Source of the DNA: Squalus acanthias | Lineage: Eukaryota | Length of the DNA: 64,000 nucleotides | Direction: 5' to 3' | NCBI GenBank assembly: GCA_030390025.1 | Contig: JASTWF010000034.1 | Span: 4,030,001-4,094,000 of the forward strand | In this document: positions 23,372 to 53,559 of the stretch, piece after piece | How the letters are laid out: every line of letters begins with the position of its first letter | How positions within the stretch are numbered: position 1 is the stretch's first letter | The notes under the pieces: model-generated | Databases searched by the model: none | What the model was told of the DNA's origin: nothing | Seen by the model: only the letters and a program-made list of their open reading frames with translations | Translations under genes and position numbers: made by a program

Positions 23372-26300
23372 CCCCTGGCGAAGTGGGGTGAGGGGTGGAG
23401 TGAGGAGGTGGGCAGGCCTTCTCATTAACCACCCCGTCATAGCCTGGTAAGCTGAAATATCTGTGGTGCTATGTGGGTTTGCTCTCATGGCCATCAGACA
23501 GTTGGATAACATGTTAAACCACTGTCTGGGGTGGTCCGTACAAAACGTTTCCAGCATGGTTTTAAGGGTTCGATTTCCCCACTCCACTACCCCTGATGAT
23601 TGTGGGTGGTGCACTACATGCAATTTGTGGGAGAATTTCATGAGTCTCTGAAGCTCTCAGAACATTTTGCTGGTAAAATGAGTCTCTTGGTTACTATCCA
23701 CCTGGATTGTTATTCCGCACCTGCAGACCACCTCACACAAAAGCAGTTTTGCTGCTGTCAGGGCTGTGTTCATTCTACAGCGGAAAGCCTCAATCCATTT
23801 CATCAATATGTCTATTAGGACCAGACAGTATTTGTAGCCCGAGGGCGCCGTGACGAGGGTGCCTATAAAGTCTATCTGGATGTGTGTCCAGGCTCCGTAG
23901 TAAATCGAATAATTCTACTCCCATAGCCGGGGGGGGGGGGCGCAGGTGACGCAGACATCCGGGGTACTGACGTACATGAGGATGTATAGCAGGGTGCCGG
24001 GCGCATCATGGTGAAGGGAGGTGAGCGGGGTTAACGGGGTTGGCCCAGTAAGGCTGGCCCTGCAGGTGCCATGCGATTACGACCGAGTATGGGTCGTACA
24101 TGGCTTGCAAGGAGGCTGGATCGTTGGCCGGGCTTACAGCTGATACGGGTAACGGGTCAGTTTCCTGGGGTTTTGCCCCCACAAACAGGCCACTATTCCG
24201 GCCTGCTTTGCTGCCTTGTCTGCAGAGGAGTTGCCCCTAGCTAGTGGTTCCATGGAGCGGGAATGTGCCCTAACCGTGCCCATATAGACAGGTGCCGTAC
24301 GTCCCCGCAACACCGCGTCCAGAACCCGAAAAAGGACCGCGTGTAACAAGAGTTTACCGTCGGTCATGCAAACGTTATTCCGGGCACACAGGGGTAAGGA
24401 GAGCAGGGTGTTGATAGCATAGGCACTGTCGGACCAAATATTCATACTTTGAGAACTGGTAATCTGAATGGCAGTGACGGGGGCAGCCACCTCAGCGTAC
24501 TGTGCCGAATGAGGGCTACATTTTTAATGAATGACCACATTCGGCAAGATAATGGCGAACCCGGTGCACGGTTTACCGTCCTTGTGAAATGACGATCCCT
24601 CGATAAAGGCATCCGGAGCGTCCTGAATCAGCTCTGCCTGGACCGAAGGGATGCGGAAGTCCAGCGGAGGAAGGGAACATTCGTGTGGTGGTTCGTCGTA
24701 CAGGAGACGCTGAGGCAGTGAGGTAATTGGTTTGGGAGTGATCTCCAGGTCGCGCTGAGTCAGTTCCAATGTCCAATGGCTCAGCCGGGCTGATGACACC
24801 AGCGTGTCTCCGGGCCGGAGCAACAGGTTCAGAGGTGTGTGTGGAATCTGCAGTATCACCCGCTTGAACGCCGTATTGTGGTGAAGTGTTTGACGGCCCA
24901 GATCGTGGACAACAAGTGTCTTTCGCAAGTGGAGTAAGTCAGTTCGACGCCCCTTAAGATTCTGGAGGCCGATGCGATAGTTACTAGTCCGCCCTGGTTA
25001 TCTTGGCATACGGCGGCGAAGGGCTTTTCTCGCTGGGTCCGAACACCATGTGGAGGGGTTTCTGGGATTGGGTGAAACCAGACATGTCGCCTGTAGGCGG
25101 ATTGCTTCAACGGCGCCACTGCGCCCATGCAGCCCTCAGTCCAGCCGGGTTTGATATGATGGTCATCTCCTTTAAGTAGTTCATGAAGTGGTGCAGCAGT
25201 CTCTGTGAACCGTGGAATGAAGGTACGCTGATATCCCACCAGCCCAAGGAAGGAACGCAGTGCAGTCTTTGAGGTGGGCAGGGATAGACGCTGGATGGTT
25301 TCGACCTGGGGCCGTTCCGGGCTGATGCCGGATGCTCCGATTCGGACGCCTTTAAAGGTAACAGTCCTGTGCCAATTGTGCCTTACGTGGTTGAACCTTT
25401 AGTCCGGCACCCTTCAGGTTCGCAATAGTTCTTGTAGGGGGTTTCGGTGCTGGGCGCCGTCTGTGGCAGCAAGCAGGATATCATCAACATATTGAAGCAA
25501 ATCGGAAGGTAGTGGAAAGCTCTTCAGAACCCTGGCCATACGTTTGTGGACAAATAATGGGGGCATTATCGGACCCCTGCGGCAAACACGTCCAGGTGTA
25601 ACCCTGATCCTCGAAGGTAAATGCGAATTTAAACTGATCTTCCTGTCTTATAGGGATTCTCCAAAAGCCATTAGAAATATCCAGGGTTGAGAAGACTGTC
25701 CTTCCGCTGGGAAGCTGAGAGAGTAGGGTGGGTGTGTCCCGAACTCTCTGTCTGGAGTTCTAGATGGCCCTGACTTTTGGTTAGGCAGCGGGTCCTCAAC
25801 GGCCGCTACTGCAGCCTTGGCAGGTGTCCTAGGGATATTGGCACGGGTCTGATCCCAAGCAGTCCTGGCATGGGTGCGTAGTTGTTCCCACGCGGTGTCT
25901 TTGGAGACGTAAACGCCCAGCACGTTATGGACCAATGGTTGGAGGCCGTTCAAAAAGAGGTTTTTGAAGCTCGGGTGTTTGAAGTAATTCCCTCCACCGC
26001 CCCTGGTGCGCTGGGAAATGTCATGGAGTTTATGCACAAAAAGCATTCGGGCTTTCGGTAGGGCCCTGTTTGGTGTTAGCTCGGACCTGGTGAAAATCAA
26101 TGCCCTCCTGCCCGAGTGTTTGGCCTAGTTCTAATTAAATCTCATATATTGTGACCCCCTCAGTATGTCCAGGTCCATTTCTTGTTTTAATCCTGAGGAA
26201 CATGCATCCAGGAAGACCTGTTTGAGGTTGTCCCCTTCTAGTTCCGGGCGGGTGATCATAAAAATCCTCCAGCGCTGCCTGAGGTTGAGGAGGCTGGGGT

Positions 26301-26570
26301 CCCTATTCCCCGCCGCCAGGATAGCCTTTAGTGACCCCACTTCAACCGCGGTAAGGGACCAATGCGTGGTTGTGGTAGCGGTTTCTGCCTCGTTACAAGT
26401 GGTGGTCGAGGAGGCCGCCTCGCCATTCGGGTCTTGGCCAGCCTGGTGCTTGGACTCGCGTGCTGCTGCAGCTCAGTGACCACAAAAACTGGTATCGTCT
26501 CCCCCGCCTCACCTTCCTTGTATGGGTGGGGCGGAGCAGAGGGAGCAGAAAGTGTAGTTTTCTCAATGAT
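23372..26570 (-). mobile_element. Retrovirus-like element fragment: gag, partial RT, degenerate RNase H/tether, second RNase H, integrase; degraded
   Basis: gag 25740-26560; RT TLDISNGFW..YTWTCLPQG..LLQYVDD (~25480-25700); YSTCERHLL; FIEGSS..QYAEVAA..IWSDSAYA; IN HHPQSSGVVE. Confidence 0.85.
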
Positions 26571-29661: not shown

Positions 29662-29680
29662 TGTAAGAATAAAAATATAT

Positions 29681-32600
29681 AGAAACATAGAAACATAGAA
29701 GATAGGAGCAGGAGTTGGTCATTCGGCCCCTCGAGCCTGCTCTGCCATTTAATGAGATCATGGCTGATCATCAAAATTCAGAACCCTGTCCCTGCTTTCT
29801 CCCCACATCCCTTGATCCCTTTAGCCTTAAGAAATATATCTAACTCCTTCTTGAATATATTATAATGAGTTGGCCTCAACTGCCTTCTGTGGTAGAGAAT
29901 TCCACAGGTTCACCAATCTATGGTTGAAGAAATTCCTCCTCATCTCAGTCCTAAATGGCTTCCCCCTTATCCTTAGACTGTGACCCCTGGTTCTGGACTC
30001 CCCTGCCATTGGGAACATCCTTCCTACATCTAGTCTGTCTAGTCCTGTTTGAATTTTATATGTTCAATGAGATCCCCTCTCATTCTTCTAAACTCTAGCG
30101 AATACAAGCTCAATCGTCCCAATCTCTCTTCATACGTCATTCCTGCCATCCCAGTTATCAGTCTGGTGAATCTTCGCTGCACTCCCTTCATGGCAAGAAC
30201 ATCCTTCCTCATTAAGGCGACCAAAACTGCACACAATACTCAAGGTGTGGTCTCACCAAGGCCCTGTACAACTGCAGCAAGACATCCTTGCTCCTGTACT
30301 TGAATCCTCTCGCTATGAAGGCCAACATACCATTTGCCTTCTTAACCACCTGCTGCACCTGCATGCTTACCTTCAGCGACTGGTGCACAAGGACACCCAT
30401 GTCTCGTTTCACTTCCCCTATTCCCAATCTATTGCCGTTCAGATAATAATTTGCCTTCCTGTTTTTGACACCAAAGTGGATAACCTCGCATTTATTTACA
30501 TTATACTGCATCTGCCATGCATCTGACCAATCACCCAACTTGTCCAAATCATACTGGAGTTTCTCTGCATCCTCCTCATAACACACACGCCCACCCAGCT
30601 TTGTGTCATCTGCAAACTTGGAGATATTACATCTAGTTCCCTCGTCTAGATCATTAATATATATTGTGAATAACTGGGATCCTAGCACCGATCCCTGCGG
30701 TACCCCACCAGTCACTGCCTGCCACTCGGAAATTGACCCATTTATTCCAACTCTTTGCTTCTTGTCTGCCAACCAGTTCTCCATCCAAGTCATTACCTTA
30801 CCCCCAATCCCATGTGATTTAACTTTGCACGCCAATCTCTTATGCGGGACCTTATCGAAGGCCTTCTGAAAGTCCAAATACACCACATCCACTGGTTCTC
30901 CCTGATCTATTCTACCAGTTACATCCTCAAAAAATTCCAGTGGTTTAGGCAAGCATGATTTACCTTTTGTAAATCTAAGTTGACTTTGTCCGATCCTTTC
31001 ACTGTTTACCAAGTGCTCTGCTATTACATCTTTTATAATGGACTCTAACATTTTCCCCACTACCGATGTCAGGCTTATAATTCCCCGTTTTCTCCCTACC
31101 ACCTTTTTAAATCGTGGGGTTACATTTGCTACTCTCCAATCCATGGGAAATGTTTCAGAGTCGACAGAATTTTGAAAGATGATCAGCAATGCATCTACTA
31201 TTTCTAGGGCCACTTCCTTAAGTACCCTAGGATACAAATTATCAGGCCCTGCGGATATATCAGCCTTCAATCCCGTCAATTTCCCTAACACCATTTCCCT
31301 ACAAATACTGATTTCATTCAGTTCTTCCCTCTCATTAGACCCTATGTTCCCCGACATCTCTGGGAGGTTATTTGTGTTCTCCTTTGTGAAGACAGAACTA
31401 AAGTATGTATTAATAGAAACATAGAAAAATAGAAGATAGGCGCAGGAGTAGGCCATTCGGACCCTCGAGCCTGCTCTGCCATTTAATGAGATCATGCCTG
31501 ATCATCCAAATTCAGTACCCTGTTCCTGCTTTCTCCCCATATCCCTTGATCCCTTTAGCCTTAAGAAATATATCTAACTCCTTCTTGAATATATTTAATG
31601 AATTGGCCTCAACTGCCTTCTGTGGTAGAGAATTCCACAGGTTCACCACTCTCTGGGTGAAGAAATTCCTCCTCATCTCAATACTAAATGGCTTCCCCCT
31701 TATCCTTAGATTGTCACCCCTGGTTATGGACTCCCCTGCCATCGGGAACATCCTTCCTGCATCTAGTCTGTCTAGTCCTGTTAGAATTTTATAAGTTTCA
31801 ATGAGATCCCCTCTCATTCTTCTAAACTCTAGCGAATACAAGCTCAATCGTCCCAATCTCTCTTCATACGTCATTCCTGCCATCCCAGGTATCAGTCTGG
31901 TGAATCTTCGCTGCACTCCCTCCAAGGCAAGAACATCCTTCCTCAGATAAGGCGACTAAAACTGCACATTGGTCAGCCATTTATTTCTTCCCCATTATAA
32001 ATTCCCCTGATTCTGACTGCAAGAGACCTACGCTTAACTTCACCAATCTTTTTCTCTTCACATATCTATAGAAGCTTTTACAGTCAGTTTTTATGTTCCC
32101 AGCAAGCTTACTCTCATACTCTATTTTCCCCCTCTCAATTAATCCCTTTGTTCTCCTTTGCTGAAATCTATACTGCTCCTAATCCTCATGTTTGCTGGTT
32201 TTTCAGGCCAATTTATATGTCCTCTCCTTGGATCTTATGCTATCCCTAATTTCCCTTGTTAGCCATGGTTGAGTCACCTTTTTTGTTTTATTTTTATGCC
32301 AAACAGTGATGAACAAATTCTGTAGTTCATCCATGCGATCTTTAAATGTTTGCCATTGCCTATCCACTGTCAACCCTTTAAGTAACGTTCCCCAATCCAT
32401 CCTAGCCAATTCGCGCCTCATACCATCGTAGTTTCCTTTATTTAAATTCAGGACCCTAGTCTCTGATTCAACTACTTCACTCTCCATCTTAATGAAGAAT
32501 TCTATCATATTATGATCGCTCCTCCCAAGGGGCCTCGCACAACAAGATTGCTAATTAATCCTTGCTCATTACATAATACCCATTCTAAGATGGCCTGATC

Positions 32601-32789
32601 TCGAGTTGGTTCTTCGACATATTGGTCCAGGATACCATCCAGTATACACTCAAGGAATTCCTCCTCCACAGTATTGTCACTAATTTGGATTGCCCAATCT
32701 ATATGTAGATTAAAGTCACCCATGATAACTGCTGTGCCCTTATTGCACGCATCACTAATTTCCCGTTTAATGCCATCCCCAACCTCAGC
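29681..32789 (-). mobile_element. CR1 LINE (5'-truncated) inserted in the ERV 5' LTR
   Basis: MGDFN endonuclease region, RT ORF 30212-31495 with PQGSVLG/KFADD; atat repeated at both junctions. Confidence 0.92.
31414..31968 (-). mobile_element. Same-family CR1 3' end nested inside the CR1 above
   Basis: second copy of tail and RT C-terminus interrupts the ADQLN-YF region, which resumes at ~31969. Confidence 0.85.
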
Positions 32790-33572
32790 ATATGTTTTGT
32801 ATGTGAGATGGACTCAAGACTATTAATATAAGATGTATGTGATAAAGATGAACTTGATGTGTACGGATCTCCCTGCTCAAGGCAACGGCGCAAAACTTAA
32901 GAATTGAAACCTGCATAACAGGAAAACCCCCCACAGAGACAGCATCGAAACTCACCATCGAAACTCAAGAGCCATTAAAAGGTGTTAACAAACAATTCAC
33001 TTAATCAAGAAATGGCACCAGCCACTGCAGACAGACACATGTTCAAAGGAAAGCCAATCAAGAACAGCCATAAAACTGAGACCCAATCCTTAGGTCTTAG
33101 CAATTTAGACTGGAGACAGTGGACTTAAAAAGACATAAAATAAGGAACCCAACGGCTCTCACTCTCTCTCTGGAGGACCGCTCGGAGAAACAGGAAGCCC
33201 TCCCTCTGCAGACCAGACCAAGAAGCGAGGAAAAAGGCCGCATGCATTGCTTGACTCAGGGAAGTACAAGTCTGTTTAAATCGAACCCATTGCCTTACCT
33301 GTTGTAATCGAGTAGAGTCCATAGGATACCAGTAGGCTATTGTTTTGATGTGCATGAGTGTGTTTGTTTAATAAACTTATTCCAAGTTGTTTCAAATGAA
33401 TTGGTCTTGCTGTCAATGTAATGCCAGTCGAAATAAAAAGCTTATAAAACTTTTGGCTCGTCCAGGATCTGGCGAGACAGCTTTAGATCATTCTTTTAAA
33501 CAATTGGAAATTACGGGAGTTGTGATTCTAACCTGTGGAGCGAAGTTTAAAAATAAATTCAAAAGACGCAGG

Positions 33573-35333
33573 ATGAAGGGTCGGGGGGCATACAAAAAGT
33601 CAACAAAATACGTAGCTGTAGCCTTCCATGAGAACATATACGAAAAGGTATCCATAAGGGACTTACAAGAGTTACGGGCACGATGCATCTGTAAGGGCCA
33701 ACATGCGTCCTTTGGGAAGCTCGTGTCATTTATCCAGGAGAGGGTAGGTGAGGGAAAGCTAAGGCCCAAACAGGCAAACGGTCTCTTGGCATTCGGGGCA
33801 CATTACTGTGCTCGGAGAGATGAGGAATTAATGAGGCAGGATGCAAAAGAGATTCGAGATTTAAAGGGAGAGATACAAGATTTAAAAGAACTAAAATTCA
33901 AAGAGATTCAACTAAAAGAAAAGGAGATTCAAAATATTAAAGAACAGAAAGAAGAAGGCATCCAGCTTGTTAGACAGTTAAAGGAGGGTGAAATGCAGCA
34001 TTTGAGACAAGAAATCGATCGATTAGGCCACAGTATCAGGCAACTAGAAAGAGGAGCCGAGCAGGCAGCTTCGTTGCTACAGCAACAAAGCCTCTCACAA
34101 TTAAATGCAGGAGCAGCTGTCGCGGCAGCAAATGAAATCAAATTAAAATCAAGAAATATAAATTGGAAAACCTGGGGCTCCGGCAGGAAGTAGAAGACGT
34201 TAGGGGGGCATTAAGGGAAGCAATTAAGAAGCTACATAGGGAGGCAGACCACTCCCGGTGCCGCCTAGAAATAGCGCGGCTGAAGAGTAAATTAGGGCAG
34301 CAACAGGCTCGAGTATCCGCAGTAACACGGGGAGCCATAACAGAGACAACAGAAAGGGACGAGGGGAAGACAGATTTGGAAGAGGAAGGCAGTCAGTATA
34401 ATCCCCAGCAGGGCGGCGAAGGATAGGATACCTTGGAGACACAAGGGCCAACCGTAGCAGTAGTGAACACTTCTTTACAGCGTAATGTGCATGATCACAT
34501 GACGAGTAACCATACCGAATCAGGGCCCATATCTGGTGCTGACACCACGGCGTGTAGCCACGAGTTAGGGCCCTATTAATTTTGGGGACGACCCACTGGT
34601 CGTTAATAGGAGGTGGATTATTTCAGGAGGAATCGCCCCGAGTTAGAAGAGGCAGACTTAACACGAGTCCTCCTCTTGTCCTGTTCCACTTTTTAAAGAA
34701 TAATCTGCCAGACGCGATCCTCCAGCGTGGCACAGCGACCGATGCTGTCGTGACCGAGATCCTAAACCATATAGGGATCTAAAACTTAACCTTAGTGGAT
34801 TTGCTTAGTCAGACTAAACAGCGCCCAGATGAGACCCCGAGAGCGTTCAGTAATCGCCTGTACGATATCTATGAACGTCCCCAGAACCAGGCACCCGCAA
34901 ATGCTGCAGCAGGAAAGAATCAGGAACCATTCAAACCGATGTTCCTGACCCAGCTCCACTCTTTAGTTAAAACCACACTGGGTATAGCCCTGAGGCCCGC
35001 CGATCAGTGGACAGATATAGAGACTGACGTTTAAAGAGCCTGGGAGATGGTAAAAGACCAGTTAAAGGTGAAGTCATCACCCACCGCAAAGAATCAGTGT
35101 CAGCGGTGGAGGGATCTAGGTACTACCCCTTTAGAGGACAGTGGTTTAATTGTAAGAAGGAAGGTCACCTCGCAAAACACTGCAGGAGACCCAGACAGGC
35201 ACCGGACCACGATGCAACGCATAGATCCCTCCCGACGGATGAACCCGAGCCCTCTGGGGTGGAACAACAATTGGCTCAGTTAGTTACCCTTTTAAAAAAG
35301 GACGAATTCAAGTCCTCTGGGACGGATCAATGA
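33573..35333 (+). pseudogene. gag: ERV gag (coiled-coil N-terminus, capsid-like region, degenerate CCHC knuckle), frameshifted
   Basis: KQRPDETPRAFSNRL; (W)FNCKKEGHLAKHC. Confidence 0.7.
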
Positions 35334-35515
35334 TTGGACCAGTTGATAACCCTCATGAAAGCTCAAATTGTCACGGGGCGGGGGGGGGGGGGGGGATGCA
35401 AAATAATTTACCGGTGCACGCAATCGCCAGTGCACACCCATTGGAAATGCAAATTCCTATTGTCAATGCACACCCATTGGAGGGACCCCTGCAAGGATCC
35501 ACCCTATGACGGGGA

Positions 35516-38500
35516 TTGTCCCCTAACGATTGGTCGGAAGTGGGGTTCCGATATGATGGTAGCGGGAGACCAGTAGTCCTTGTTGTCTTAAAAGTGGACC
35601 GGCAGCAGATTATGCTTATAGACACTGGCTCAGCCGTTACCATCATCCACACCCCATACCCTGAACGCCATGCAGCGGCGGGCAAGGGTTGTATGGCCCT
35701 TAAAGGGTTTATTGGTGATACAACCACCGCGTATACAGGGAAGGCCTCTGAACTTCAGTTGGGAGGCCTCATCTGTAAGGTCCCAGCGCCGATGCTGATG
35801 ACCACCCCCGACGGAAGGGGAATGTTAGGGACTGATGTGTTGGATCAATATGGCGCGGTAATAGATTACAATCGGGACTGTGTTTGGATGGGATTGAGAA
35901 ATAATGCAAAAGTGACAGAAATTTCAGATGCTCACGCTGTTTTTGCTATTATAATGCTATCCGAGTATGATCCTCCGGGGAGCGAAAATGAAGCTGTGGC
36001 AAAACTAATTCAGGAACACCTAGCGGTGTTTGCCACGTGCAAGCACGATTGTGGAAAAATGGAGGCGAAGATTCTATTGAGGGACCCCCCCACTCATTCA
36101 CTAACAGTACCCCATCCCAAGGGAGAGTCACCCGAGACACCATAAAATCTCTAGTCGAGAAGGGTGTTGTTAGGACAGGCACTTCCACAACCAATTCACC
36201 CACACGACTGGTTAAAAAGCCTGATAGCAGCTGGCGACTGACTATTGCTGACAGAAAGTTCAATTCTGTAACGCCAGCCTGCTCACCGGTAGTAAGAGAA
36301 GCTCCCACCATATTATCTCAAATTGCTGCTGGTTCCAAGTACTTCTCGACCCTCGACATGGCCAATTGATTCTGGAGTTTCCCTGTTAAAAGGGAGGACC
36401 AGTTAAATTCACGTTCACAGTTGAGGATCAGAGCTACACCTGGACATGCCTGCCTCAGGGGGTCCACAATGCCCCCCATGATCTTCCACTAAAGAATGGC
36501 TGCGGTTTTAAAAGACTTTTCCCGCCCTACCTGCTTGCTACAGTATGTAGACGGTCTACTGCTGGCAACCGATAACATGGAGGAGCATCTGTCCCTTTTG
36601 CACGTACTGTTGACATTATTGGCTCAGGCGGGACTAAAGGTGAATCCCCGTAAGGCTCAGTTGGTAAAAGAACGGGTCACCTTTCTGGGAGTGTCCATTT
36701 CTCCAGAGGGAGCGTCCCCCGACTCCTACAAGGTGGAGATAATGCAGCGACTACCATTACCCATTTCCAAAACAGCCCTACGATCATTCTTGGGTTTGGT
36801 GGGCTACCAAAGGGACTTTATCCCAGGCTTTGCAGAGTGCGCAAAGCCCCTGTATGATTTGATAAAACTGCAGGGTGATGACATACGCCCGGCATGGACT
36901 AATGATCACACCCAGTCCGTGGCCATATTAAAAACTGCAGTGATACAGGCCGCATGTCTGATTCCTCCGGTCCCACGCAGCCCTTCCATTTGGAGGTCGG
37001 GGCCACAGAAAAAAGCCTCGCCGCAGTTCTGTGCCAAACGCGAGCTGATCGACTACCGTCCATTGCATATGCGTCTGGAATCCTGCAGGGGGCAGAAAAG
37101 ACGTACACCGCGTGCGAGCGCCACCTGCTGGCCTGTCTTCTGGGCGGTACAGCATTTTACCTTTATTTCTGGCTGCAAGCTACCATCCTTCACAGCGCTC
37201 ATACGCCTCTGAGCCTACTGATGAAACCTGGAGATTCGCTAGTTTCCTCGCAGCACCTCAGCAAATGGACATTGGAATTTATGGAAAGAGACATTGTTAT
37301 CATTTCCAAACCCACCACGTTGGTGCCACAATTTCTGGTTTATGCGGGGGAACTGCATGAATGTCCGCTACCCCTGATTAACTTTGAGACCCATCCCGTG
37401 CAGAAAGAGCCCATACAGGGAGCCCCAGATGTCTACGTCGATGGGTCCTCATATCACATCGCGGGATCCCCCCACACCGTGTATGCTGTGGTATTGCCAG
37501 AGAGAACCATCCAGCGACGATGCAACCGACAGTCCACACAATATGCAGAAATCGCCGCACTTCTAAGCACCGTGAAATAAACCTCAGATAGACCCGTGAA
37601 TATTTGGTTCGATAGTGCCTATGCCATAAACACCATGCTCTCCTTGCTCCTATACCACGAAAATGACTACCGTACAATTGACGGTAACGAACTGGTCCAT
37701 GGGGCCTGGTTACGCCTGCTCTGGTCATACCTTAAACAGCGATCCCATCCCTGTTTCATAGAAAATGTAGCAGCCCATAGAAAAGGTGTCCACAAAGTGA
37801 GGGAAATTCCAGAGCAGACAGAGCAGACAAGGTCGCTGCGATTAATGGGGAGATAGAGGATATAGTTTTTGAGCCCTGCAATGGCTCCCCAACAGATCAC
37901 CTAGATTTTAATTCCCTGCAGCAGCAATACTGTCCATAAGCCGTTGTAAGCGCCTGGCACGAGGAAGGCAGACCACTTCCTCAACCGACAGCCTGGAACC
38001 CCAATACCAGACTAGCCACTGCCCCTGACTCAGCGGAGTAGTTGGTGATGTTGAAAAGAAAGCCATACGTCTGCCCGGTGTTGTGTGTTCCACCAGAGCT
38101 GGGTCAGGAACTGCTGTCCCTCTTTCACACCCTCACCACGGCAGGGCACTATTCGGCCCTGGCAATCTTCAATAAGGTAGCATCCAAAGCTTGGTGGTCT
38201 TTCATGAGGGAAACAATCAACCAAATGTGGCACGATGCCGACCGTGCCTGCAGCCCAATCCTCCCACGTGCACTAACCGAGCCTTGCTTCAAAGCGCGCC
38301 CCCACCTCAAGGGCCATGGACTCACCTCCAAATAGACGTCATTGGGCCACTTCCACAGGCGCAAGGCAATTCTTGGCATGCCCTAGTGGTGGTGGATCAA
38401 TTCACAAAATGGATCGAAGCATTCCCCTGGCGCTCCAACACCACAATCACGGATGCCAAAACACTATTAAATCATATGTTTTGTAGGTGGGGTGTACCGG

Positions 38501-39898
38501 TAAAAGTGGACAAGGGAATACACATTAAATGGTTGGACACTGAGTAATGCAGAGGAACAAAGGGACCTTGGAGTGCATGTCCACAGATCCCTGAATGTAG
38601 CAGGTCAGGTAGATAAGGTGGTTAAGAAGGCATACGGAATGCTTGCCTTTATTAGCCGTGGTATAGAATACAGGAGCAGGCGGGTTATGCTTCAACTGTA
38701 TAAAACAATAGTTAGGCCTCAGCTAGAATACCGCATGCAGTTCGAGTCACCACATTACAGGAAAGATGGGATTGCACTAGAGAGGATACAGAGGAGATTT
38801 ACAAGGATGTTGCCGCGAGTAGAGTATCTTAGCTATGAGGAACGACTGGATAGGGTGGGTTTGTTTTCCTTGGAACAGAGGAGGCTGAGGGGAGACCTTA
38901 TTGAGGTTTTTAAAATTATGAAGGGCATGGATAAAGTGGATAGAAAGGACCTGTTTCCCTTAGCAGAGGGGTCAAAAACCAGGGGGCACAGATTTAAAGT
39001 AATTAGTGGAAGGTTTAGAGGGGATTTGAGGGGAAATTTCTTCATCCAGAGGGTGGTGGGGGTCTGGAACTCACTGCCTGAAAGGGTGATAAAGGCAGGA
39101 ACCCTAACCACATTTAAAAAGTACTTGGATGTGCACTTGGGATGCTCTAACCTGCAGGGCTACGGACCAAGAGCTAGGAAGTGGGATTAGGCTGGATAGC
39201 TCTCTGTTGGCCGGCGCGGACACGATGGGCCGAAATGGCCTCCTTCCGTGCTGTAACTTTCTATGATTCGATGATTCTATAGACAATATCATGGTTCGCA
39301 CTTTACCGGTAAGATTTTTACCCACCTGCAAGATATGTTGGGGATAAAACACAAACTACATGTTGCTCACCACGCCCAGTCGTCCGGAGGCGTCTAAAGG
39401 AGGAACAGGACTCTCAAGTAAATGTTAAAAAATTGTGTGCAGACCACCACACTCAATGGGCCAACATGCTGCCAATGTTCTTAATGGCAATGAGGTCCAT
39501 ACCTCATAAAACAGCAGGAGCCTCCCCATATCAGGCCATGACGGGGAGACTCATGAGAACGCCAGGGGATGAACAGCTTGACAATGGAACCATGTAGTTC
39601 CAATTGGCTGAAACAATTGGTAGATCACACCGATCAGATGAATCGATTTGTGGCCACGAAATTGCGGAAGTCAAAAAGACACCTTAAATGGTACTTTGAC
39701 AAGAAAGTCCGTCCCTTTGAGTATCAGGTGGGGGACACCGTAATTATTCCAAATTATGGGAAAAATAAGCATGCTTTTGAGCCCAGGTGGTGGGGACCGC
39801 ATACGATTATATACCGATTGAATCCCGCGGTTTATTTCATTAAGTTACGGGGGAAAAAGGTGTTAAGTACAAGAAATGATATCATATTAACCAGTTAA
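35516..39898 (+). pseudogene. pol: ERV pro-pol: protease, RT, degenerate RNase H, RNase H, integrase; multiple frameshifts
   Basis: LIDTGS; TLDMAN*FWS..YTWTCLPQG..QYVDG; FHLEVGAT..YTACERHLLA; YVDGSS..QYAEIAA..WFDSAYA; WTHLQIDVIGPLP..VVDQFTKWIEAFP; EPRWWGPH. Confidence 0.9.
38514..39281 (+). mobile_element. CR1 3' portion inserted in the ERV integrase
   Basis: ORF 38573-39190 is the CR1 RT C-terminus; gacaa repeated at both junctions. Confidence 0.9.
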
Positions 39899-42800
39899 AA
39901 ACTGCAAAAATTTAATTCTACACTGAACTTGTTTCCCAAAGGACCATGATACGGATACAGATAACACACAACAATGCCATAAACAGCAGAGCTATACAAA
40001 AGCTAGGTGCCAGCCCATGGTTGGAAACAATGTAGAATGTAGGACAACACCCCTGGCTCAGAACACTCTCAATGCTTATGATATGCGACCCCTGGGGAGA
40101 TAAATCAAAGGAGAGGTCAATAAGGTTATTTCCCCCTCAAGGCGGGGAATCTGTAAGAATAAAAATATATGTTTTGTATGTGAGATGGACTCGAGACTAT
40201 TAATATAAGATGTATGTAATAAAGATAAATTTGATGTGTAAGGATTTCCCCTGGGTGAGCAGAACTCAAGGCAATGGCACAAAACATAACAAAGGAAACC
40301 TGCATAACAGGATAACCACCACAGAGACACCATCGAAATTCACCATCGAAACTCAAGAGCCACTAAACGGTATCAACAAACAATTAACTTAAGCAAGAAA
40401 TGGTACCAGCCACTGCAGACAGACACATGTTCAAAGGAAAGCCAATCAAGAACTGCCATGAAACTAAGACCCAATCCTGGGGTCTTAGCAATTTAGACCA
40501 GAGACAATTGACTTAAAAATATATAAAACAAGGAACTCAAAGGCTCTCTCTCTCTCTCTCTCTCCGGATTGCCAGGCAGGGAAGAACAAGAAGCCCCCCC
40601 TCTACAGACCAGACCAAGAAGCAAGGAAAAAGGCAGCGTGCATTGTTGATTCAGGGAAGTACAAGTCTCTGTAAATATAACCCATTACCTTACATGTTGT
40701 AATCGAGTAGAGTCCATAAATAAAAGGAGGCTATTGTTCTGATGGGCATGAGTGTGTGCGTTTAATTAACTTATTCCAAATTGTTTCAAAAGAATTGGTC
40801 TTGCTGTCAATTAAATGGCAGTCGAAATATAATGCTTACAACTCTCTGCACCGGGGAATAAAGTTACAGTTACAGTTAAAGTTAGTTTGACATGATGCCC
40901 TCTACACCGGTGAATAAAGTTACAGTAAATTGTTAATTTGACATGATACACTCTACACCAGGGAATAAAATTACAGTCGATTGTTAATTTGACATGATGC
41001 CCTCTACACCGAAGAATAAAGTTACAGTTAATTGTTAATTTGACATGATACCCTCTACACCAGCGAATACAATTACAGTAATGTTTTTATTTGACTTGAT
41101 AACCTCTACACCAGGGAATAAATTTACAGTTAATTGTTAATTTGACATGATTCCCTTTACACTGTGGAATAAAGTTACAGTTAATAGTTAATTAGACATG
41201 TTACCTCTACACCGGGGAATAAAGTTACAGTTAATTGTTAATTTGACATGATACCCTCTACACCAGGGAATAAATTTACCGCGAATTTTTAATTTGAGAT
41301 GATACCCTCAACACCGGGGAATAAAGTTTCAGTTAATTGATAACTTAGACATCATGCCCTCTACACCAGGGAATAAAGTTAAAGTTAATTGTTAATTTAG
41401 ACATGATGTCAGCTACACCAGGGAATAAAGTTTAAGTTAATTGCTAATTTGACATGCTACCCTCTACACCGGGGAATAAAGTACTAGTTAATTGTTAATT
41501 TGACATGATGCTCTCTCCACTGGGGAATAAAGTTGCAGTTAATTATTAATTTAAACATTATACCCGCTACACCGGGGAATAAATCGGCAGTTAATTCTTA
41601 ATTTAGATATGATGCCTTCTACACAAGGGAATAACGTTACAGTTAATTTTTAAGTTGGCATTTACCCTGCACACTGCGGAATAAATTAACAGTTAATTGT
41701 TAATTTGCCATGATACCCTCTACACCGGGAAATAAAGTTGCAGTTAATTGCTAATTTCACATGATACCCTCTACACCGGGGACTAAAGTTACTGTTGATT
41801 GTTAATTTGACATGATAACCTGTACACTGTGGAATAAAATTACAATCAATTGTTTATTTGACATGATAACCTCTACACTGAGGAATAAAGATAGTCAATT
41901 GTTAATTTGACATGATACCCTCTACACCTGGGAATAAAGTTAAAGTTGATTGTGAATTTAGATATATTACCCTCTACACCCGGGAATAAATTTACAGTTA
42001 ATTGTTAATTTAGACATGATTCCCCCTACACCATGGAATACATTTACAGTTAATTGTTAATTTGACAGAATGCCCTCTACACTGGGGAATAATGTTACAG
42101 TTAATTATTAACTTAGAAATAACTCCCTCTACTACGGGGAATAAAGTTACAGTTAATTGTTAATTTGACAGGATGCCCTCTACACCGGGGAATAATGTTA
42201 CAGTTAATTATTAACTTAGAAATAATTCCCTCTACACCGGGGAATAAAGTTACAGTTAATTGTTAATTTGACAGGATGCCCTCTACACCGGGGAATAATG
42301 TTACAGTTAATTATTAACTTAGAAATAATTCCGTCTACTCCGGGGAATAAAGTTACAGTTAATTGTTAATTTGACTTGATGCCCTCTACACGGGGGAATT
42401 ATGTTACATTTGTTTGTTAATTTGACATGATGCCCTCTACACTTGGGAATAAAGTTACATTCAATTGTTAATTTAGTCATGATACCCTCTACATCGGGGA
42501 ATAAACTTACAATTACTTTCTAATTTTACACGACGCCTTCTACACCGGGGAATAAAGTTACAATTAATAGTTAATTTAGACATGAATCCCTCTACACCGG
42601 GTAAAAAGTTACAGTTAATTATTAATTTGACATGATACACTCTACACCAGGGAATAAAGTTACAGTTCCTTGTTAATTTAGATATGATAACCTCTATACC
42701 GGGGAATAACGTTACAGTTAATTGTTATTTTAGACATGATATCCTCTACACTGTGGATAAATTTACATTTAATTGTTAATTTAGACTTGATATCCTCTAA

Positions 42801-43997
42801 GCCAGAGAAAAAAGTTACAGCTAATTGTTAATTTGACAGGATACCCACTACACCGGGGAATAAAGTTACATTTCATTGTTAATTTGAAATGATATCCTCT
42901 AAACCGGGTAATAAAGTTACAGTTAATTGTTAATTTTATATGATATCCTGTAAACTGGGTAATAAAGTTGAAGTTAATTATTTATTTGACATGTTGCACT
43001 CTAGACCGATGAATAAAGTTACAGTCAATTGTTAACTTAGCATGATATCCTGTAAACTGGGGAATAAAGTGGAAGTTAATTATTTATTTGACATGTTGCA
43101 CTCTACACCGATGAACAAAGTTACAGTCAATTGTTAATGTAGACATGATTTCCTCTACAGCGGGGAATAAAGTTACAGTGAATTTTTAATTTAGACATGA
43201 TACCCTCTACACCGGGGAATTATGTTACAGTTAATTGTTAATTTGAAATGATGCCCTCTACACCGGGGAATGAAGTTACAGTCAATTGTTAATTTGACAT
43301 GATACCCTCTACAATGGGGAATAAAGTTACAGTTAATTGTTAATTTGACATGAAACCCTCTACACCGGGGAATTATGTTACTGTTAATTGTTAATTTGAA
43401 ATGATGCCCTCTACACCGGGGAATGAAGTTACAGTCAATTGTTAATTTGACATGATACCCTCTACAACGGGGAATAAAGTTACAGTAAATTGTTAATTTA
43501 GTCATGATACCCACTGCACCGGGGAATAAAGTTTCAGTTAAATGTGAATATATCATGATTCCCTTTACATCCGGCAGTAAAATTTCAGTTAAATGTTAAT
43601 TTTACATGAAACCCTCTACATCAGGGAATAAAGTTATAATTAATTGTTAATTTAGACATGGTTCTCCCTACACCGGGGAATAAAGTTACAGTTAATTATT
43701 ATATTGACATGATACACACTACACCAGAGAATATAGTTACAGTTCATTGTTAATTTAGCCACGATAGCCTGGACACTAGGGAATAATGTTACAGTTAATT
43801 GTTAATTTAGACATGATATCATCTGCACTGGGGAAAAAGTGACAGTTAATTGTTAATTTTACATGATGCCCTCTACACCGGGGAATAAAGTTACAGTTGA
43901 TTGTTAATTTGACATGATACCCTGTACAATGTGGAATAAAATTACAGTCAATTGTTTATTTGACATGATAACCTCCACAGGGGGGAATAAAGATATT

Positions 43998-47476: not shown

Positions 47477-49238
47477 ATATAGTCAATGTTTTATTTGACA
47501 TGATACCCTCTACACTGAGGAATAAAGATAGTCAATTTTTTTTTTGACATGATACCCTCTACACTGAGGAATAAAGATAGTCAATTTTTTATTTGACATG
47601 ATACCCTCTACACCTGAGAATAAAGTTACAGTTAATTTTTAATTTGACATGAATCTCTCTACACCGGGGAATAATGTTACAGTTAATTATTAATTTAGAC
47701 ATAATTCCCTCTAATCCTGGGAATAAAGTTACAGTTAATTATTTATTTGACATGATACACTCTACACCAGGGAAAGAAATTACAGTCAATTATTAATTTG
47801 ACATGATACCCTCTGCACCGGGGAATAAAGTTACAGGTAATTGTTTATTTGATATGATTCCCTCTACACCAGGGAATAAAGTTTCAATCAATTGTTAATT
47901 TGACATGATACCCACTGAACCTGGGAATAAAGTTACAGTTCATTGTTAATGCAGATATGATTCCCTCCACACCGGGGAATAAAGTTACAGTTAATTGTTA
48001 ATTTAGACCTGATTCCCTCCACACCAGTGAGTAAAGTTACAGTTCATTTTTAATTTGACATGATATCCTCTACACCAGAGAATAAAGTTACAGTTAATTG
48101 TTAATTTAAAATGCAACACTCTACACTGGGGATTAAAGTTACAATAAATTGTTAATTTGACATGATACCCTCTGCACCGGGGAATAAAGTTTCAGTTAAA
48201 TGTTAATTTGACATGATTCCCTCTACACCGGGGAATAAAGTTTCAGTTAAACGTGAATTTGACATGTTACCCTCTACACCAGTGAATAAACTTAACGTTT
48301 ATTGTCAATTGGACGTGATATCCTCTATATCGGGGAATAAATTTACAGTTAATTGTTAATTTGACAAGATATCCTCTACACCGGGAAAAAAAGCTACTTT
48401 TACTTGTTAATTTAGACATGAAACCCTCTGCACCAGTGAATAAAGTTACAGTTAATTGTTAATTTGACATGATACCCTCTACTCCGGGGATTAAATTTAC
48501 AGTTAATTGTTCAATTTAGATGATGACCTGTACACCAGGGAATAAAATTAAAATTAATTGTTAATTTGACATGATAAACTATGCACCGGGGAATAAAGTA
48601 ACTGTCAATTGTTCATTTAGATATGATTAGCTATACACCTGGGAATAAAGTTACAGTTAATTGTTAATTTAGACATGATGCCCTCCAAACCGTGGAATAA
48701 AGTTACTGTTCATTTTTTGTTTGACATGATATCCTTTACACCAGAGAATAAATTTATTTAATTGTTAAATTGACATGATGTCCTCTACACCTGTGGTTAA
48801 AGTTACACTGAATTGCTAATTTTGACATGATGCCCTCTACAACGGGAAATAAAGTTACAGTTAATTGTTGATTTTGACATGATACCCTCTACACCGGTGG
48901 AATAACGTTATAGTTAATTGTTTATTTTCTCATGAAACCTTTACACTGGGGAATAAAGTTGAAGTTGATTGTTCATTTGACATGATACCCTCTACACTGT
49001 GGAATAATGTTACATTCAATTGTTTTTTTTTACATGAAACCTCGACACTGGGGAATAAAGATACAGTCAATTGTTAATTTGAAATGATACCCTCTGCACC
49101 GGGGAATAAAGTTAAAGTTAATTGTTCATTTAGACCTGAAACCCTCTACCCTGGGGAATAAAGTTGCAGTTAATAGTTAATTTGACAGGATTCCCTCTAC
49201 ACCGGAGAATAAAGTTACACTTAATTGTTAATTAAGAC

Positions 49239-52200
49239 CAGTGTCGGAAGCGGAGAGAGCAGCAGCACAGTGAGTATTTAAACACACTTTCGCGGGCTTT
49301 TTTAAAGGGGTCAGTGTCTGGAGCGGAGAGAGCAGCAGCACAGTGAGTAGTTAAACTCACTTTCGCGGGCTTTTTTCCAGAGGCCAGTGTCGGGAGCGGA
49401 GAGAGCAGCAGCACAGTGAGTAGTTAAACTCACTTCCGTGGGCTTTTTACAGAAGCCAGTGTCGGGAAAGGGACCTTGAGTATATAATTTCATTGAAGTG
49501 AAATTGGTGGGATTCATTTAATTTAATTTTAATTAATTAATTAAAGGGTAAGTCATGGCAGGAGAGCTCCGCCCCGTGATATGCTCCTCCTGATATATGT
49601 GGGAAATCAGGGACCCTTCCGGTGTCCCTGACGACCATGTGTGTGGGAAGTGTATCCAGCTGCAGCTACTGCTAGACCGCATTGCAGCGCTGGAACTGCG
49701 GATGGATGCATATTGGAGCATTCGCGACGCTGGGAACGTCGTGGATAGCACGTTTAGCGAGTTGGTCACACCGCAGATAAAGGGTGTACAGGCAGGAAGT
49801 GAATGGGTGACCACCAGGCAGAGTAAGAGGTGAAGGCGGGTAGTGCAAGGGTCCCCTGTGGCCAGCCCCCTCTCAAACAGATATACCACTTTGGATACTG
49901 TTGGGGGGGATGACTTATCAGGGGAAGGCAGCAGCAGCCAAATTCCTGGCACCATGGGTGGCTCTGCTGCACAGGCTGGGAGGAAAAAGTGTGGAAGGGC
50001 TATAGTGATAAGGGACTCAATTGTAAGGGGAATAGATATGCGTTTCTGCGGCCGCAAACGAGACTCCAGGACGGAGTGTTGCCTCCCTGGTGCAAGGGTC
50101 AAGGACGTCTCGGAGCGGCTACAGAACATTTTTGAGGGGGAGGGCGAACTGCCCGTTGTCGTGGTGCACATAGGCATCAAAGCTATAGGTAAAACACGGG
50201 ATGAGTTCCTAAAAGCAGAATATAGGGAGTTAGGAGGTAAATTAAAAAATAGGACCTCAAAGGTAGTAATCTCAGGATTGCTACCAGTGCCACGTGCTAC
50301 TCAGAGTAGAAATAGGAGGATATTTCAAATGAATACGTGGCTAGAGGAATGGTGCAAGGGGGAGGGATTCAAATTCCTTGGACATTGGAACCGGTTCTGG
50401 GGGAGGTGGGACCAGTACAAACGGGATGGTCTGCACCTGGGCAGGGCCGGGACCGATGTCCTAGGGGGAGTGTTTGCTAGTGCACTTGGGGAGGGTTTAA
50501 ACTAAAGTGGCAGGGGGTTGGGAACCTGAGCAGGGAGACAGAGGAAAGGGAAAGAAGGATAAAAGCGAAAGACAGGAAGGAGAAAAACAAAAGTAGAAGG
50601 CAAAGAACTCAACGGTTTAAATCAAACATGGTCACAGTAAAAAATAATTCATATAGGTCTGAGAGCCTTAAAAAAACAAGCCTGAAGGCTTTGTGTCTTA
50701 ATGCAAGTAGCATTCGGAACAAGGTGGATGAATTAGCTGCGCAACTAGAGGTAAATGAATACGATTTCATTGGGATTGCAGAAACATGGCTCCAGGGTGG
50801 CCAAGTCGGGGAACTCAACATGCACGGGTATTCAATATTTAGGAAAGATAGGCAAAAAAGAAAGGGAGGTGGGGTAGCATTGCTGGTAAAAGAGGGGATT
50901 AACACAATTGAAAGAAGGATATTAGCTCTGATGATGCGGAATCTGTATGGGTAGAACTGAGAAATAACTATGGGCAGAAAACGATAGTGGGAGTGGTATA
51001 TAGACCTCCAAACAGTAATACGAAGTTGGGGACCTCATTTAAAGGGAAATTAGAGAAGCATGCAGTAAGGGCACAGCAGTCATCATGGGTGACTTTAATT
51101 TACATATAGATTGGGCTAACCAAATTAGTAAAAGTACCGTGGAGGAGGAATTCCTAGAATGTTTACGGGATGGTTTTCTGGAACAATATGTCGAGGAACC
51201 AACGAGAGATCAGGCCATCTTAGACTGGATATTATGTAACGAGAAAGGATTAATTAGCAATCTTGTTGTACGAGGCCCCTTGGGTCAGAGTGATCATAAT
51301 ATGATAGAAATCTTCATTAGGATGGAGAGTGAAGTAGTTGAATCAGAGACTAGGGTCCTGAATTTAAATAAAGGAAACTTCGATGGTTTGAGGCGCGAAT
51401 TGGGTAGGATTGATTGGGGAATGTCACTCAAAGGGTTGACGGTGGATAGGCAATGGCAAACATTCAAAGACTGCATGGATGAACTACAGAATTTGTTCAT
51501 CCCAGTGTGGCATAAGAATAAAGCAAAAAGGGTGACTCAACCGTGGCTAACAAGGGAAATTAAGGATAGCATGCGATCCAATGAGAGGGCATATAAATTG
51601 GCCAGAAAAAGCGGTAACCGTGAGGATTGGGAGCAGTTTAGGATTCAACAAAGGAGGACAAAGGGATTAATTAAGAAGGGGAAAATAGAATATCAAAGTA
51701 AGCTTACAGGGAACATAAAAAACTGACTGTAAGAGCTTTTATAGATATGTGAAGAGAAAAAAGATTAGTGAAATCAAGTGTAGGTCCCTTGCAGTCAGAA
51801 GCGGGGGCAGTTATAATGGGGAACAAAAAAATGGCAGACCAATTAAATGCATATTTTGGTTCTGTCTTCACAAAGGAGGACATAAATAACCTCCCAGAGC
51901 TGTTGGAGAACATAGGGTCTGATGAATGGGAGGAACTGAAAGAAATCAGTATTTGTAGGGTAATGGTGTTAGGGAAATTGACGGGATTGAAGGCCGATAA
52001 ATCCTCAGGGCCTGATAATATACATCCTAGGATAATTAAGGAAGAGGCTCTAGAAATAGCAGATGCATTGCTGGTCATCTTCCAACATTCGATGGAATCT
52101 GGAACTGTACCCGTGGATTGGAGGGTAGCTAATGTTACCCCACTATTCAAAAAGGGTTGTAGAGAGAAAGCCTGACATCGGTAGTGGGGCAAATGCTAGA

Positions 52201-53559
52201 GTCCATTATAAAGGATGTAATAGCTGAGCACTTGAAAAACAGTGACAGGATCGGACAAAGTCAACATGGATTTACAAAAGGTAAATCGTGCTTGACTAAT
52301 CTACTGGAATTTTTTGAGGATATAACTGGGAAAATAGATAAGGGAGAAGTAGTAGATGTGGTGTATTTGGACTTTCGAAAGGCTTTCGATAAGGTCCCGC
52401 ATAAGATATTATCGTGTAAAGTTAAAGCACATGGGATTGGGGGCAAGGTATTGACTTGGATAGAGAACTGGTTGGCGGACAGAAAGCAGAGAATAGGAAT
52501 TAATGGGTCTTTTTCCGAGTGGCAGGCAGTGACTAGTGGGGTACCGCAGGGATCTGTTCTTGGAACCCAGCTATTCACAATATACATTAATGATCTAGAT
52601 AAGGGAACTAAATGCAGTATCTCCAAGTTTCCAGATCACACAAAGCTGGGTGGGCGAGTGTGCTGCGAGGAGGATACCGAGAAACTCCAGGATGATTTGG
52701 ACAGGTTGGGTGAGTGGGCAGAAGCGTGGCAGATGTATTATAACGTGGATACATGCGAGGTTATCCACTTTGGTGTCAAAAACAGAAAGGCAGGCTATTT
52801 TCTGAATGGCAATAGATTGGGAGAAGGGGAAGTGCAACGAGACCTGGGTGTCCTTGTGCACCAGTCGCTGAAGGTAAGCATGCAGGTGCAGCAGGCGGTG
52901 AAGAAGGCAAATGGTATGTTGGCCTTCATAGTGAAAGGGTTTGAGTATAGGAACAGGGATGTCCTGCTGCAGTTGTACAGGGCCTTGGTGAGACCACACC
53001 TTGAGTACTGTGTGCAGTTCTGGTCACCTTATCTGAGGAAGGATGTTCTTGCCATGGAAGGAGTTCAGCGAAGATTCACAAGGCTGATACCTGGGATGGT
53101 AGGAATGAGATATGAGGAGAGATTGGGTCGATTGGGCTTATACTCGCTGGAGTATAGAAGAATGAGAGGGGATCTCATCGAAACATATAACATTCTGACA
53201 GGTCTGGACAAACGAGATACAGGAAGAATGTTCCCGATGGTCGGAGACTCAAGAACCAGGGGTCATAATCTAAGGATAAGGGGTAAGCCATTCAGGACAG
53301 AAATTAGGAAAAATGTCTTCACCTAGAGAGTGGTGAATCTGTGTAATTCTCTACCACAGAAGGTAGTTGAGGCCAAGTCATTAAATATATTCAAGAATGA
53401 GTTAGATATATTTCTGAAAGATAAAGGTATCAAGGAATATGTGGAGAAGGCAGGTACAGGTTACTGAGTTTGGATGATCAGCCGTGATCTCATCGAATGG
53501 CGGAGCAGGCTCGAGGTGCCGAATGGCCTACTCCTGCTCCTATCTTCTATGTTTCTATG
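49239..53559 (+). mobile_element. Full-length CR1 LINE (5'UTR monomers, ORF1 Zn-finger + SGNH esterase, ORF2 APE-RT), inactivated
   Basis: ORF1 49555-50505 (CGKC; IRDSIVRG..RDGLHL) with stops; ORF2 50628-53460 (LNASSIRNK, AETW, MGDFN, SDH, PQGSVLG, FPDH for FADD); TSD taagac at 49233-49238 and 53560-53565. Confidence 0.95.

What the first reader, a model, noticed from the sequence alone, without database searches (positions are those of the whole stretch)
29662..40840. Basal retrovirus-like provirus with dual RNase H (loki/spuma-like) in a cartilaginous fish
Seen: pol order is protease (DTG), RT, a first RNase H-like region lacking the catalytic Asp (FHLEVGAT..CERHLL), a second RNase H (YVDGSS / QYAEIAA / DSAYA), then integrase. 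The RT carries TLD(M/I)(A/S)N(G)FW..WTCLPQG..YVD(D). Known: tether + second RNase H is the retroviral layout, not ordinary Gypsy; D-x-x-NGFW and YVDD resemble foamy-virus RT, but foamy Gag lacks a Cys-His box, whereas this gag has a CCHC-like knuckle. Inference: a lokiretrovirus-like or other deep-branching lineage. I cannot verify whether it is already described in sharks.
Basis: partly seen in the sequence, partly recalled or inferred. Interest (0 to 1): 0.75.

Follow-up and report, generated by a model that had tools for sequence, protein, structure and literature searches.

The report
Dead env-less shark retrovirus, not loki
This is a broken, envelope-deleted copy of a multi-copy endogenous retrovirus in a likely shark-type genome; it belongs with a lineage already described in the elephant shark rather than with lokiretroviruses, but its fuller relatives carry an envelope predicted to be of the measles-virus fusion type, where the published relative has an ordinary one.

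Summary
The provirus is real: LTR, PBS, gag with one zinc knuckle, protease, RT, tether, RNase H, integrase, env remnant, PPT, LTR at 29662-40840, with two LINE insertions and many breaks. Tether plus RNase H is the layout of all retroviruses, so it does not point to loki. RT falls inside Retroviridae (100/98), and grouping with lokiretroviruses is rejected (AU p 0.006). Read by eye, the RT core matches the published elephant-shark CmiERV lineage I (SnRV-related; Han 2015) at 88 of 135 residues, against 67 for SnRV and 53-59 for loki. The family has at least 60 close copies, a tRNA-Pro primer site and 4-bp target duplications; 48 of 51 paired copies lost most of env. Three copies keep a long, broken env. 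A sister family's env scores as a paramyxovirus-F-like protein (moderate evidence; folding failed), whereas CmiERV-I has a gamma-type env, which implies an envelope swap within one pol lineage. The scan reported the F-like env of this group before on four other pieces of this genome. Verdict: known lineage, notable envelope variant; the locus itself is a dead copy.

The parts
29662..29680 (+). First 19 bases of the 5' LTR (starts TG)
   Evidence: identical to the start of the 3' LTR at 40152
29681..32789 (-). CR1-like LINE inserted in the 5' LTR, 4-bp duplication, with its 3' end repeated
   Evidence: RVT_1 E 4e-26; junctions; internal repeat 94%; absent from duplicates L134 and L135
32790..33446 (+). 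Rest of the 5' LTR
   Evidence: 88.5% identical to the 3' LTR over 654 aligned bases, K2P 0.125
33451..33468 (+). Primer binding site for tRNA-Pro, decayed (14 of 18)
   Evidence: 18 of 18 in two of five other copies against this genome's tRNA-Pro
33573..35333 (+). gag, broken: N-terminal coiled-coil region, capsid-like middle (inferred from position), one zinc knuckle at 35142-35183
   Evidence: knuckle of copy L033 matches retroviral NC; no Pfam or PDB match for the capsid part
35510..35950 (+). Aspartic protease (DTG at 35621)
   Evidence: Pfam gag-asp_proteas E 4e-4
36064..36905 (+). Reverse transcriptase, with stops, frameshifts and a damaged active-site motif
36906..37400 (+). Tether (degenerate first RNase H)
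   Evidence: RT_RNaseH E 5e-15; alignment
37430..37860 (+). RNase H, one stop inside
   Evidence: tree
38040..39898 (+). Integrase with GPY/F-like C-terminal motif, split by a LINE piece
38520..39280 (+). 3' piece of a CR1-like LINE inserted in integrase (ends approximate)
   Evidence: same insert at the same site in 9 other loci
39946..40123 (+). env remnant: start of the signal peptide joined to the C-terminal end, membrane anchor also cut
   Evidence: maps to the two ends of the long env in L046, L047, L063; tblastn E 7e-5 to L057 env
40139..40149 (+). Polypurine tract
   Evidence: same in five other copies
40152..40840 (+). 3' LTR (TG...CA), AATAAA at 40719

Best explanation
The stretch is a dead, env-deleted provirus of an endogenous retrovirus family whose polymerase lies inside Retroviridae and likely belongs to the SnRV-related CmiERV lineage I. 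Shown: the anatomy, the breaks, the copy number, the 4-bp target duplications, the tRNA-Pro primer site and the shared env deletion. Inferred: an enveloped ancestor with a likely F-type (class Ib) Env entered the germ line; a copy that had lost the middle of env then multiplied inside cells by ordinary reverse transcription primed on tRNA-Pro (Gag particle, RT with tether and RNase H, DDE integrase); this insertion was later hit by a LINE in integrase, copied by segmental duplication in satellite-rich DNA, and hit again in the 5' LTR. It makes no working protein today. Because elephant-shark CmiERV-I carries a gamma-type env on a closely similar pol, env was likely exchanged at least once in this lineage; the direction is unknown.
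For: RT tree of 41 rows: family inside Retroviridae 100/98, with X. tropicalis P0001 and P0101 99/94, loki apart 99/99; loki grouping rejected. RNase H and integrase trees keep the family with Xenopus and Amia proteins (84/89 and 100/99). RT core of copy L025: 88 of 135 identical to CmiERV scaffold 2 (my reading by eye), 87 to X. tropicalis, 67 to SnRV, 53-59 to three loki, 47 to a foamy-like newt protein, 37-49 to two gypsy. CmiERV-I also shows, by eye, a coiled-coil Gag with one CCHC and the same tether, RNase H and integrase motifs. 60 of 150 scored RT matches are 81% or more identical. 4-bp duplications in 3 of the 4 dispersed copies read at both ends; the fourth (L039) had its 5' end disrupted. 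48 of 51 copies with paired integrase and env ends are env-deleted, 2 keep a long env, 1 a part (hand count); L063 is a third long one. Env of sister copy L057: furin site, hydrophobic peptide, heptads, Cys-rich part, membrane anchor, no CX6CC or LQNR motif; Atlas hits at 0.94 with 201-204 shared features in Fusion_gly clusters; PF00523 is the family matched by most members, 5 of 20, best E 0.005. The deletion junction is bridged by contigs in 4 of 4 runs of four other organism codes.
Against: CmiERV-I could not be put in the tree; the link rests on a by-eye count. Sisterhood with SnRV is not shown: the base of Retroviridae is an open fork, SnRV grouping is merely not rejected (p 0.115), and neither is grouping with two long-branched foamy-like newt proteins (p 0.086). 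The tree lacks ERV-L, ERV4, true foamy viruses, class II and Odin. My labels for SnRV, WDSV and loki rows come from motif matches to the loki paper's supplement, not from database names. F-type evidence is below Pfam's cut-off; both AlphaFold models failed (pLDDT 34 and 32), Foldseek and PDB profile searches gave nothing. This locus has no matching target duplication.
Confidence: 0.85

Rival explanations
1. It is a lokiretrovirus, the first in a cartilaginous fish.
For: Well-preserved tether, coiled-coil Gag N-terminus like the loki 'smc' region, F-like Env, RNase H on the loki side against class I (100/99); loki was found in 0 of 6 chondrichthyan genomes, so it would be new.
Against: RT outside the loki clade and the grouping rejected; loki RTs read CPFG...IYVDD where this family reads LPQG...QYVDD; 39-44% core identity to loki against 64-65% to Xenopus and CmiERV-I; loki integrases form their own clade 100/100.
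Confidence: 0.03
2. It is a foamy-like (spuma) endogenous retrovirus.
For: Best PDB matches of Pol are foamy RT and integrase; foamy Env is F-like (PMC11468914, passages); grouping with two foamy-like newt proteins not rejected (p 0.086).
Against: 47 of 135 core identity to the newt protein; Gag has a CCHC knuckle, which spumaviruses lack (PMC1224870, passage); the integrase tree puts the foamy-like row far away; the PDB holds no SnRV-like Pol, so its best hit is uninformative.
Confidence: 0.04
3. It is a separate, unnamed basal lineage (shark, frog, bowfin, coelacanth) that earlier papers lumped with SnRV by lack of sampling.
For: SnRV is only 50% identical in the RT core and not sister in either RT tree; the group is coherent in three domains.
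Against: This changes the name, not the membership: CmiERV-I is already published, and the SnRV grouping is not rejected.
Confidence: 0.35
4. It is a Gypsy retrotransposon with an added RNase H.
For: The tether still scores on the Ty3/gypsy RNase H model and most copies have no env.
Against: RT is separated from gypsy by two starred branches; env remnants and long env copies exist.
Confidence: 0.01

Closest known systems
CmiERV lineage I of the elephant shark (Han 2015, PMC4422223; scaffold 2 provirus)
   Same: RT core 88 of 135 identical (by eye); same tether, RNase H and integrase motifs; coiled-coil Gag with one CCHC; TGT...ACA LTR ends; chondrichthyan host
   Different: CmiERV-I env is gamma-type (immunosuppressive motif plus CX6CC, read by eye) and its primer site is not the tRNA-Pro one; this family has an F-like env, mostly deleted, and a tRNA-Pro site
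Snakehead retrovirus and the SnRV-like / clade Huo ERVs (PMC12193657, PMC6001957, passages)
   Same: Retroviridae outside classes I and II; ISNGFW/LPQGFH/QYVDD type RT; one zinc knuckle; C-terminal integrase domain
   Different: Only 50% RT-core identity; sisterhood unresolved; SnRV is exogenous with accessory ORFs; its Env type was not tested here
Unnamed ERV Pol proteins of Xenopus tropicalis (P0001), Amia calva, Latimeria and frogs
   Same: Nearest database proteins (57-59% to P0001); same clade in RT, RNase H and integrase trees; Pyxicephalus P0003 has a weak Ig-like hit right after integrase
   Different: Annotated only as NYNRIN-like or Gypsy integrase-like; their env genes were not seen
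Lokiretroviruses (Wang and Han 2021, PMC7947760)
   Same: Tether plus RNase H, coiled-coil region before the capsid, F-like Env with similar layout after the furin site (by eye)
   Different: Separate RT and integrase clades; shorter Env without the extra N-terminal part; long insert between protease and RT
Foamy viruses
   Same: F-like (class Ib) fusogen (PMC11468914, passages); YVDD
   Different: No zinc knuckle in foamy Gag; low RT identity; no accessory ORFs seen here

Membership tests
Retroviridae (ERV) | LTR-gag-pro-pol-env-LTR with PBS and PPT | tested here: met
   env only as a remnant in this copy
Retroviridae (ERV) | Tether followed by a second RNase H | tested here: met
Retroviridae (ERV) | RT inside the retrovirus clade | tested here: met
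   100/98, (no class II, ERV-L or true foamy rows)
Lokiretrovirus | RT in the loki clade, sister to other retroviruses | tested here: not met
   (p-AU 0.006)
Lokiretrovirus | Env related to Mononegavirales F | tested here: inconclusive
   Atlas 0.94 and weak PF00523 favour it; folds failed
Lokiretrovirus | Integrase in the loki clade | tested here: not met
CmiERV lineage I | Pol clusters with the scaffold 2 provirus | tested here: inconclusive
   88 of 135 by eye, equal to the nearest database proteins; not placed in a tree
CmiERV lineage I | Env like that of the published provirus (gamma-type) | tested here: not met
   no CX6CC or LQNR motif in L057 env; 0 of 20 sampled gamma-type env loci (of 78) had this pol as best match
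SnRV-like clade / Huo | RT clusters with SnRV | tested here: inconclusive
   open fork; not rejected, p 0.115
SnRV-like clade / Huo | Single Gag zinc knuckle | tested here: met
   SnRV has one
Spumaretrovirinae / foamy-like | Gag without zinc knuckle | tested here: not met
Spumaretrovirinae / foamy-like | RT clusters with foamy viruses | tested here: inconclusive
   not in the free tree; not rejected with two long-branched newt rows; no true foamy row
ERV3 / ERV4 (Repbase sense) | 5-bp TSD, no zinc finger, no GPY/F (PMC4299795 Table 1) | tested here: not met
   4-bp TSD, one knuckle, WWGPH motif
Ty3/Gypsy | Single active RNase H after RT, RT among Metaviridae | tested here: not met
Odin retrotransposons | RT sister to loki, cnidarian hosts | not tested
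   no Odin sequence was at hand; the family lies outside loki and inside Retroviridae

The most novel reading that the evidence does not exclude
A widespread basal retrovirus lineage of sharks, frogs, bowfin and coelacanth keeps an F-type (paramyxovirus-like) envelope with an extra N-terminal domain, inherited from the common ancestor of loki, foamy and other retroviruses, and the elephant-shark member shows the switch to a gamma-type envelope caught within one pol lineage; the F-type envelope would then be the ancestral retroviral state and the class Ia Env of orthoretroviruses a later replacement.
Probability: 0.3. Interest if true: 0.72.

Novelty: new variant of a known kind. Interest (0 to 1): 0.38.

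Why it matters
The loki paper left four scenarios open for the origin of retroviral Env because it saw no similarity between loki Env and that of other retroviruses (PMC7947760); foamy Env has since proved F-like (PMC11468914). A third lineage with an F-like Env, inside Retroviridae and with a near relative that carries a gamma-type Env, gives a testable case of envelope exchange and favours the scenarios in which F-type came first. The locus itself is ordinary: a dead copy showing env loss followed by spread, LINE hits and segmental duplication. It does not extend lokiretroviruses to sharks.

Tried and rejected
IMG/VR scan with the RT region: no relative. Two AlphaFold models of the long Env failed; the Foldseek run on the second is meaningless. 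PDB sequence and profile searches with Env: only coiled-coil chance hits. Search with a foamy-like newt protein returned 52 proteins, nearly all newt, no true foamy virus. Capsid part of Gag: no Pfam or PDB match. PDB search with a host VH gave no shark-specific name. Expression: no RNA holder listed. LTR dating rejected: LTR-LTR K2P is 0.125 here against 0.026-0.085 in dispersed copies, and one duplicate is 0.03 from this copy at the 3' LTR but 0.095 at the 5' LTR, which points to patchy exchange; no shark rate was tested. A shared dead-RT sub-lineage rejected: the damaged motif occurs in 2 of 15 pattern matches, another change in 1, the canonical motif in 12. The gag-pro junction differs among copies and the translation strategy was left unresolved. 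Paper searches for an F-like Env in SnRV-related ERVs: 2 papers, none on this; 0; 8, only the foamy structure relevant; swamped by unrelated hits; one search found no loki report in sharks. The library lacks most subscription papers, Repbase was not available, and bioRxiv supplements were closed, so absence from print is not established.
Full report
Observation. The element runs from 29662 to 40840 on the + strand. The LTR copies are 40152-40840 and 29662-33446; the 5' one is split after 19 bases by a 3.1-kb CR1-like LINE with a 4-bp duplication. Inside are a decayed primer site, gag, protease, RT, tether, RNase H, integrase split by a second LINE piece, a short env remnant and a polypurine tract. 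Gag and pol are broken by many stops and frame changes. The right flank is a 51-bp satellite, and the bases on the two sides do not form a target duplication.

The family. A search of the window's own 3.7-Gb genome with the C-terminal half of RT scored 150 of 14,616 candidates; 60 are 81% or more identical and most of the rest form related families near 60%. Three of four dispersed copies read at both ends have 4-bp target duplications, with LTR pairs 0.026-0.040 apart; the fourth has a disrupted 5' end and 0.085. The primer site matches this genome's tRNA-Pro at 18, 18, 17, 17 and 15 of 18 in five copies and 14 of 18 here. This particular insertion has itself been duplicated: nine other loci carry the same LINE at the same place in integrase, and those that reach far enough share the left flank or the satellite. 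The LINE in the 5' LTR is younger, since two duplicates lack it. LTR divergence here (0.125) is not usable as a clock.

Dual RNase H. In the alignment the first RNase H-like region lacks the acidic residues kept by four gypsy rows, and a second RNase H follows. SnRV, loki and class I rows look the same, and the loki paper states that this layout predates the split of loki and other retroviruses (PMC7947760, parts 1-3 of 4 of the text). It shows a retrovirus, not which one.

Placement. Nearest database proteins come from Xenopus tropicalis (57-59%), Amia, Latimeria and frogs. P0129 and P0192 were taken as SnRV and WDSV, and ten proteins as loki, from motif matches to that paper's supplement (parts 1, 8, 11 and search passages). 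In the careful RT tree (41 rows, reduced from the 66-row quick tree for run time) the family lies inside Retroviridae (100/98) with X. tropicalis (99/94), loki is separate (99/99), and the base of Retroviridae is open. AU tests reject family plus loki (p 0.006) and do not reject family plus SnRV (0.115) or plus two foamy-like newt proteins (0.086). RNase H (29 rows; SnRV and foamy-like rows dropped for short matches) and integrase (34 rows) trees keep the family with Xenopus and Amia.

Known relative. Han 2015 (PMC4422223; part 1 of 2 of the text, part 1 of 3 of supplement 1) describes CmiERV lineage I in the elephant shark as clustering with SnRV. Read by eye, its RT core is identical to copy L025 at 88 of 135 positions without gaps; computed values for the same stretch are 87 and 88 for X. 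tropicalis and P0101, 73 for Latimeria and Pyxicephalus, 67 for SnRV, 53-59 for loki, 45-47 for class I and foamy-like, 37-49 for gypsy. Its Gag has a coiled-coil region and one CCHC, like this one. Class III-type ERVs are the commonest in chondrichthyans (PMC11089739, passages), SnRV has one knuckle (PMC1224870, passages), and SnRV-related ERVs may have a knuckle and a GPY/F-like motif (PMC4299795, passages). Loki was found in 0 of 6 chondrichthyan genomes, which fits.

Envelope. The 250 bases after integrase are the two ends of env joined. By hand count, 48 of 51 family copies with both landmarks share an env deletion, two keep a long env and one a part; L063 is a third long one. All three long ones are broken. 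Contigs from four other organism codes bridge the junction (4 of 4 runs), so the deletion likely predates those species' split. Spread after env loss is a known pattern (recalled, not looked up). A sister family has a 784-codon open env frame (L057), 35-46% identical to the family's own. It has a furin site, a hydrophobic peptide, heptads, a Cys-rich part and a membrane anchor, and no CX6CC or immunosuppressive motif. The Atlas places it with Fusion_gly clusters at 0.94 with 201-204 shared features, PF00523 is the commonest Pfam hit but below cut-off (5 of 20 members), and its layout resembles the loki Env by eye. Against: both folds failed and PDB searches were blank. I put F-type at about 80%. 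CmiERV-I, read by eye, has a gamma-type env. In this genome none of 20 sampled gamma-type env loci (of 78) had this pol as best match. So one pol lineage likely carries two unrelated envelopes in two chondrichthyans. Foamy Env is F-like (PMC11468914, passages); XtERV-S is a published case of a class III pol with a class I env (PMC8278194, passages).

Host. Five of 14 printed V-set loci (of 30 fetched) run straight into a J motif in genomic DNA; germline-joined antibody genes are typical of cartilaginous fish (search listing and abstract starts only). Rearranged DNA from blood cells could look alike, so this is likely, not proven.

Other papers: PMC9040795 (term search, no hits), PMC12440569, PMC6001957, PMC10435555, PMC12193657, bioRxiv 2023.10.26.564294 and 2024.03.17.585361 (passages). 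bioRxiv supplements were closed and may bear on the novelty of the F-type env.

Earlier scan notes. Four notes on other pieces of this genome reached the same reading, not loki, SnRV/CmiERV-I related, F-type env; I had reached it before opening them, and they are not independent support. None found names the contrast with the gamma-type env of CmiERV-I.

Verdict. Observation confirmed; interpretation partly supported. A dead copy of a known lineage, with an envelope variant that is worth a proper tree and fold. Interest 0.38.

Noticed in passing
window 23384-26358 (-): A second, internally deleted provirus of a related family (gag piece joined to mid-RT, then tether, RNase H, integrase; 68% to the sister family in integrase).
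   Followed up: partly
window 40844-43992, 47493-49233, 53563-64000: 51-bp AT-rich satellite arrays, abutting the 3' LTR; duplicates of the provirus share this flank.
   Followed up: partly
window 51022-53560 (+): A CR1-like LINE 87-88% identical to the one in the 5' LTR, in the opposite orientation, also within satellite.
   Followed up: no
G000:C2671:4262000-4278500 (L126, L064): A near-identical duplicate (RT K2P 0.008) about 206 kb away on the same scaffold; recent duplication or assembly redundancy.
   Followed up: partly
many dispersed copies, e.g. L041:7721-8071: The env remnant stays an open frame of about 100-117 codons (signal peptide start, membrane anchor, basic tail) in many copies; no sign of function was tested.
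   Followed up: no
L046:826-1740: An LTR of the same family is inserted inside the env of a long-env copy.
   Followed up: no
L025:7690-9132, L042:3028-3534: Harbinger-like transposase frames next to or inside family copies (by eye, not scanned).
   Followed up: no
G000:C26:38998647-41268857: Tandem array with 1,623-bp period holding a tRNA-Pro 3' motif (541 matches genome-wide).
   Followed up: no
L136-L155: Many gamma-type env loci sit on a pol closest to unnamed P0329/P0128, a group basal to class I in the trees; a further shark ERV lineage.
   Followed up: partly
P0127 (unnamed Logan protein): A related Pol with an open 1,193-aa frame but no YxDD motif, possibly Ovex1-like (recalled, not checked).
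   Followed up: no
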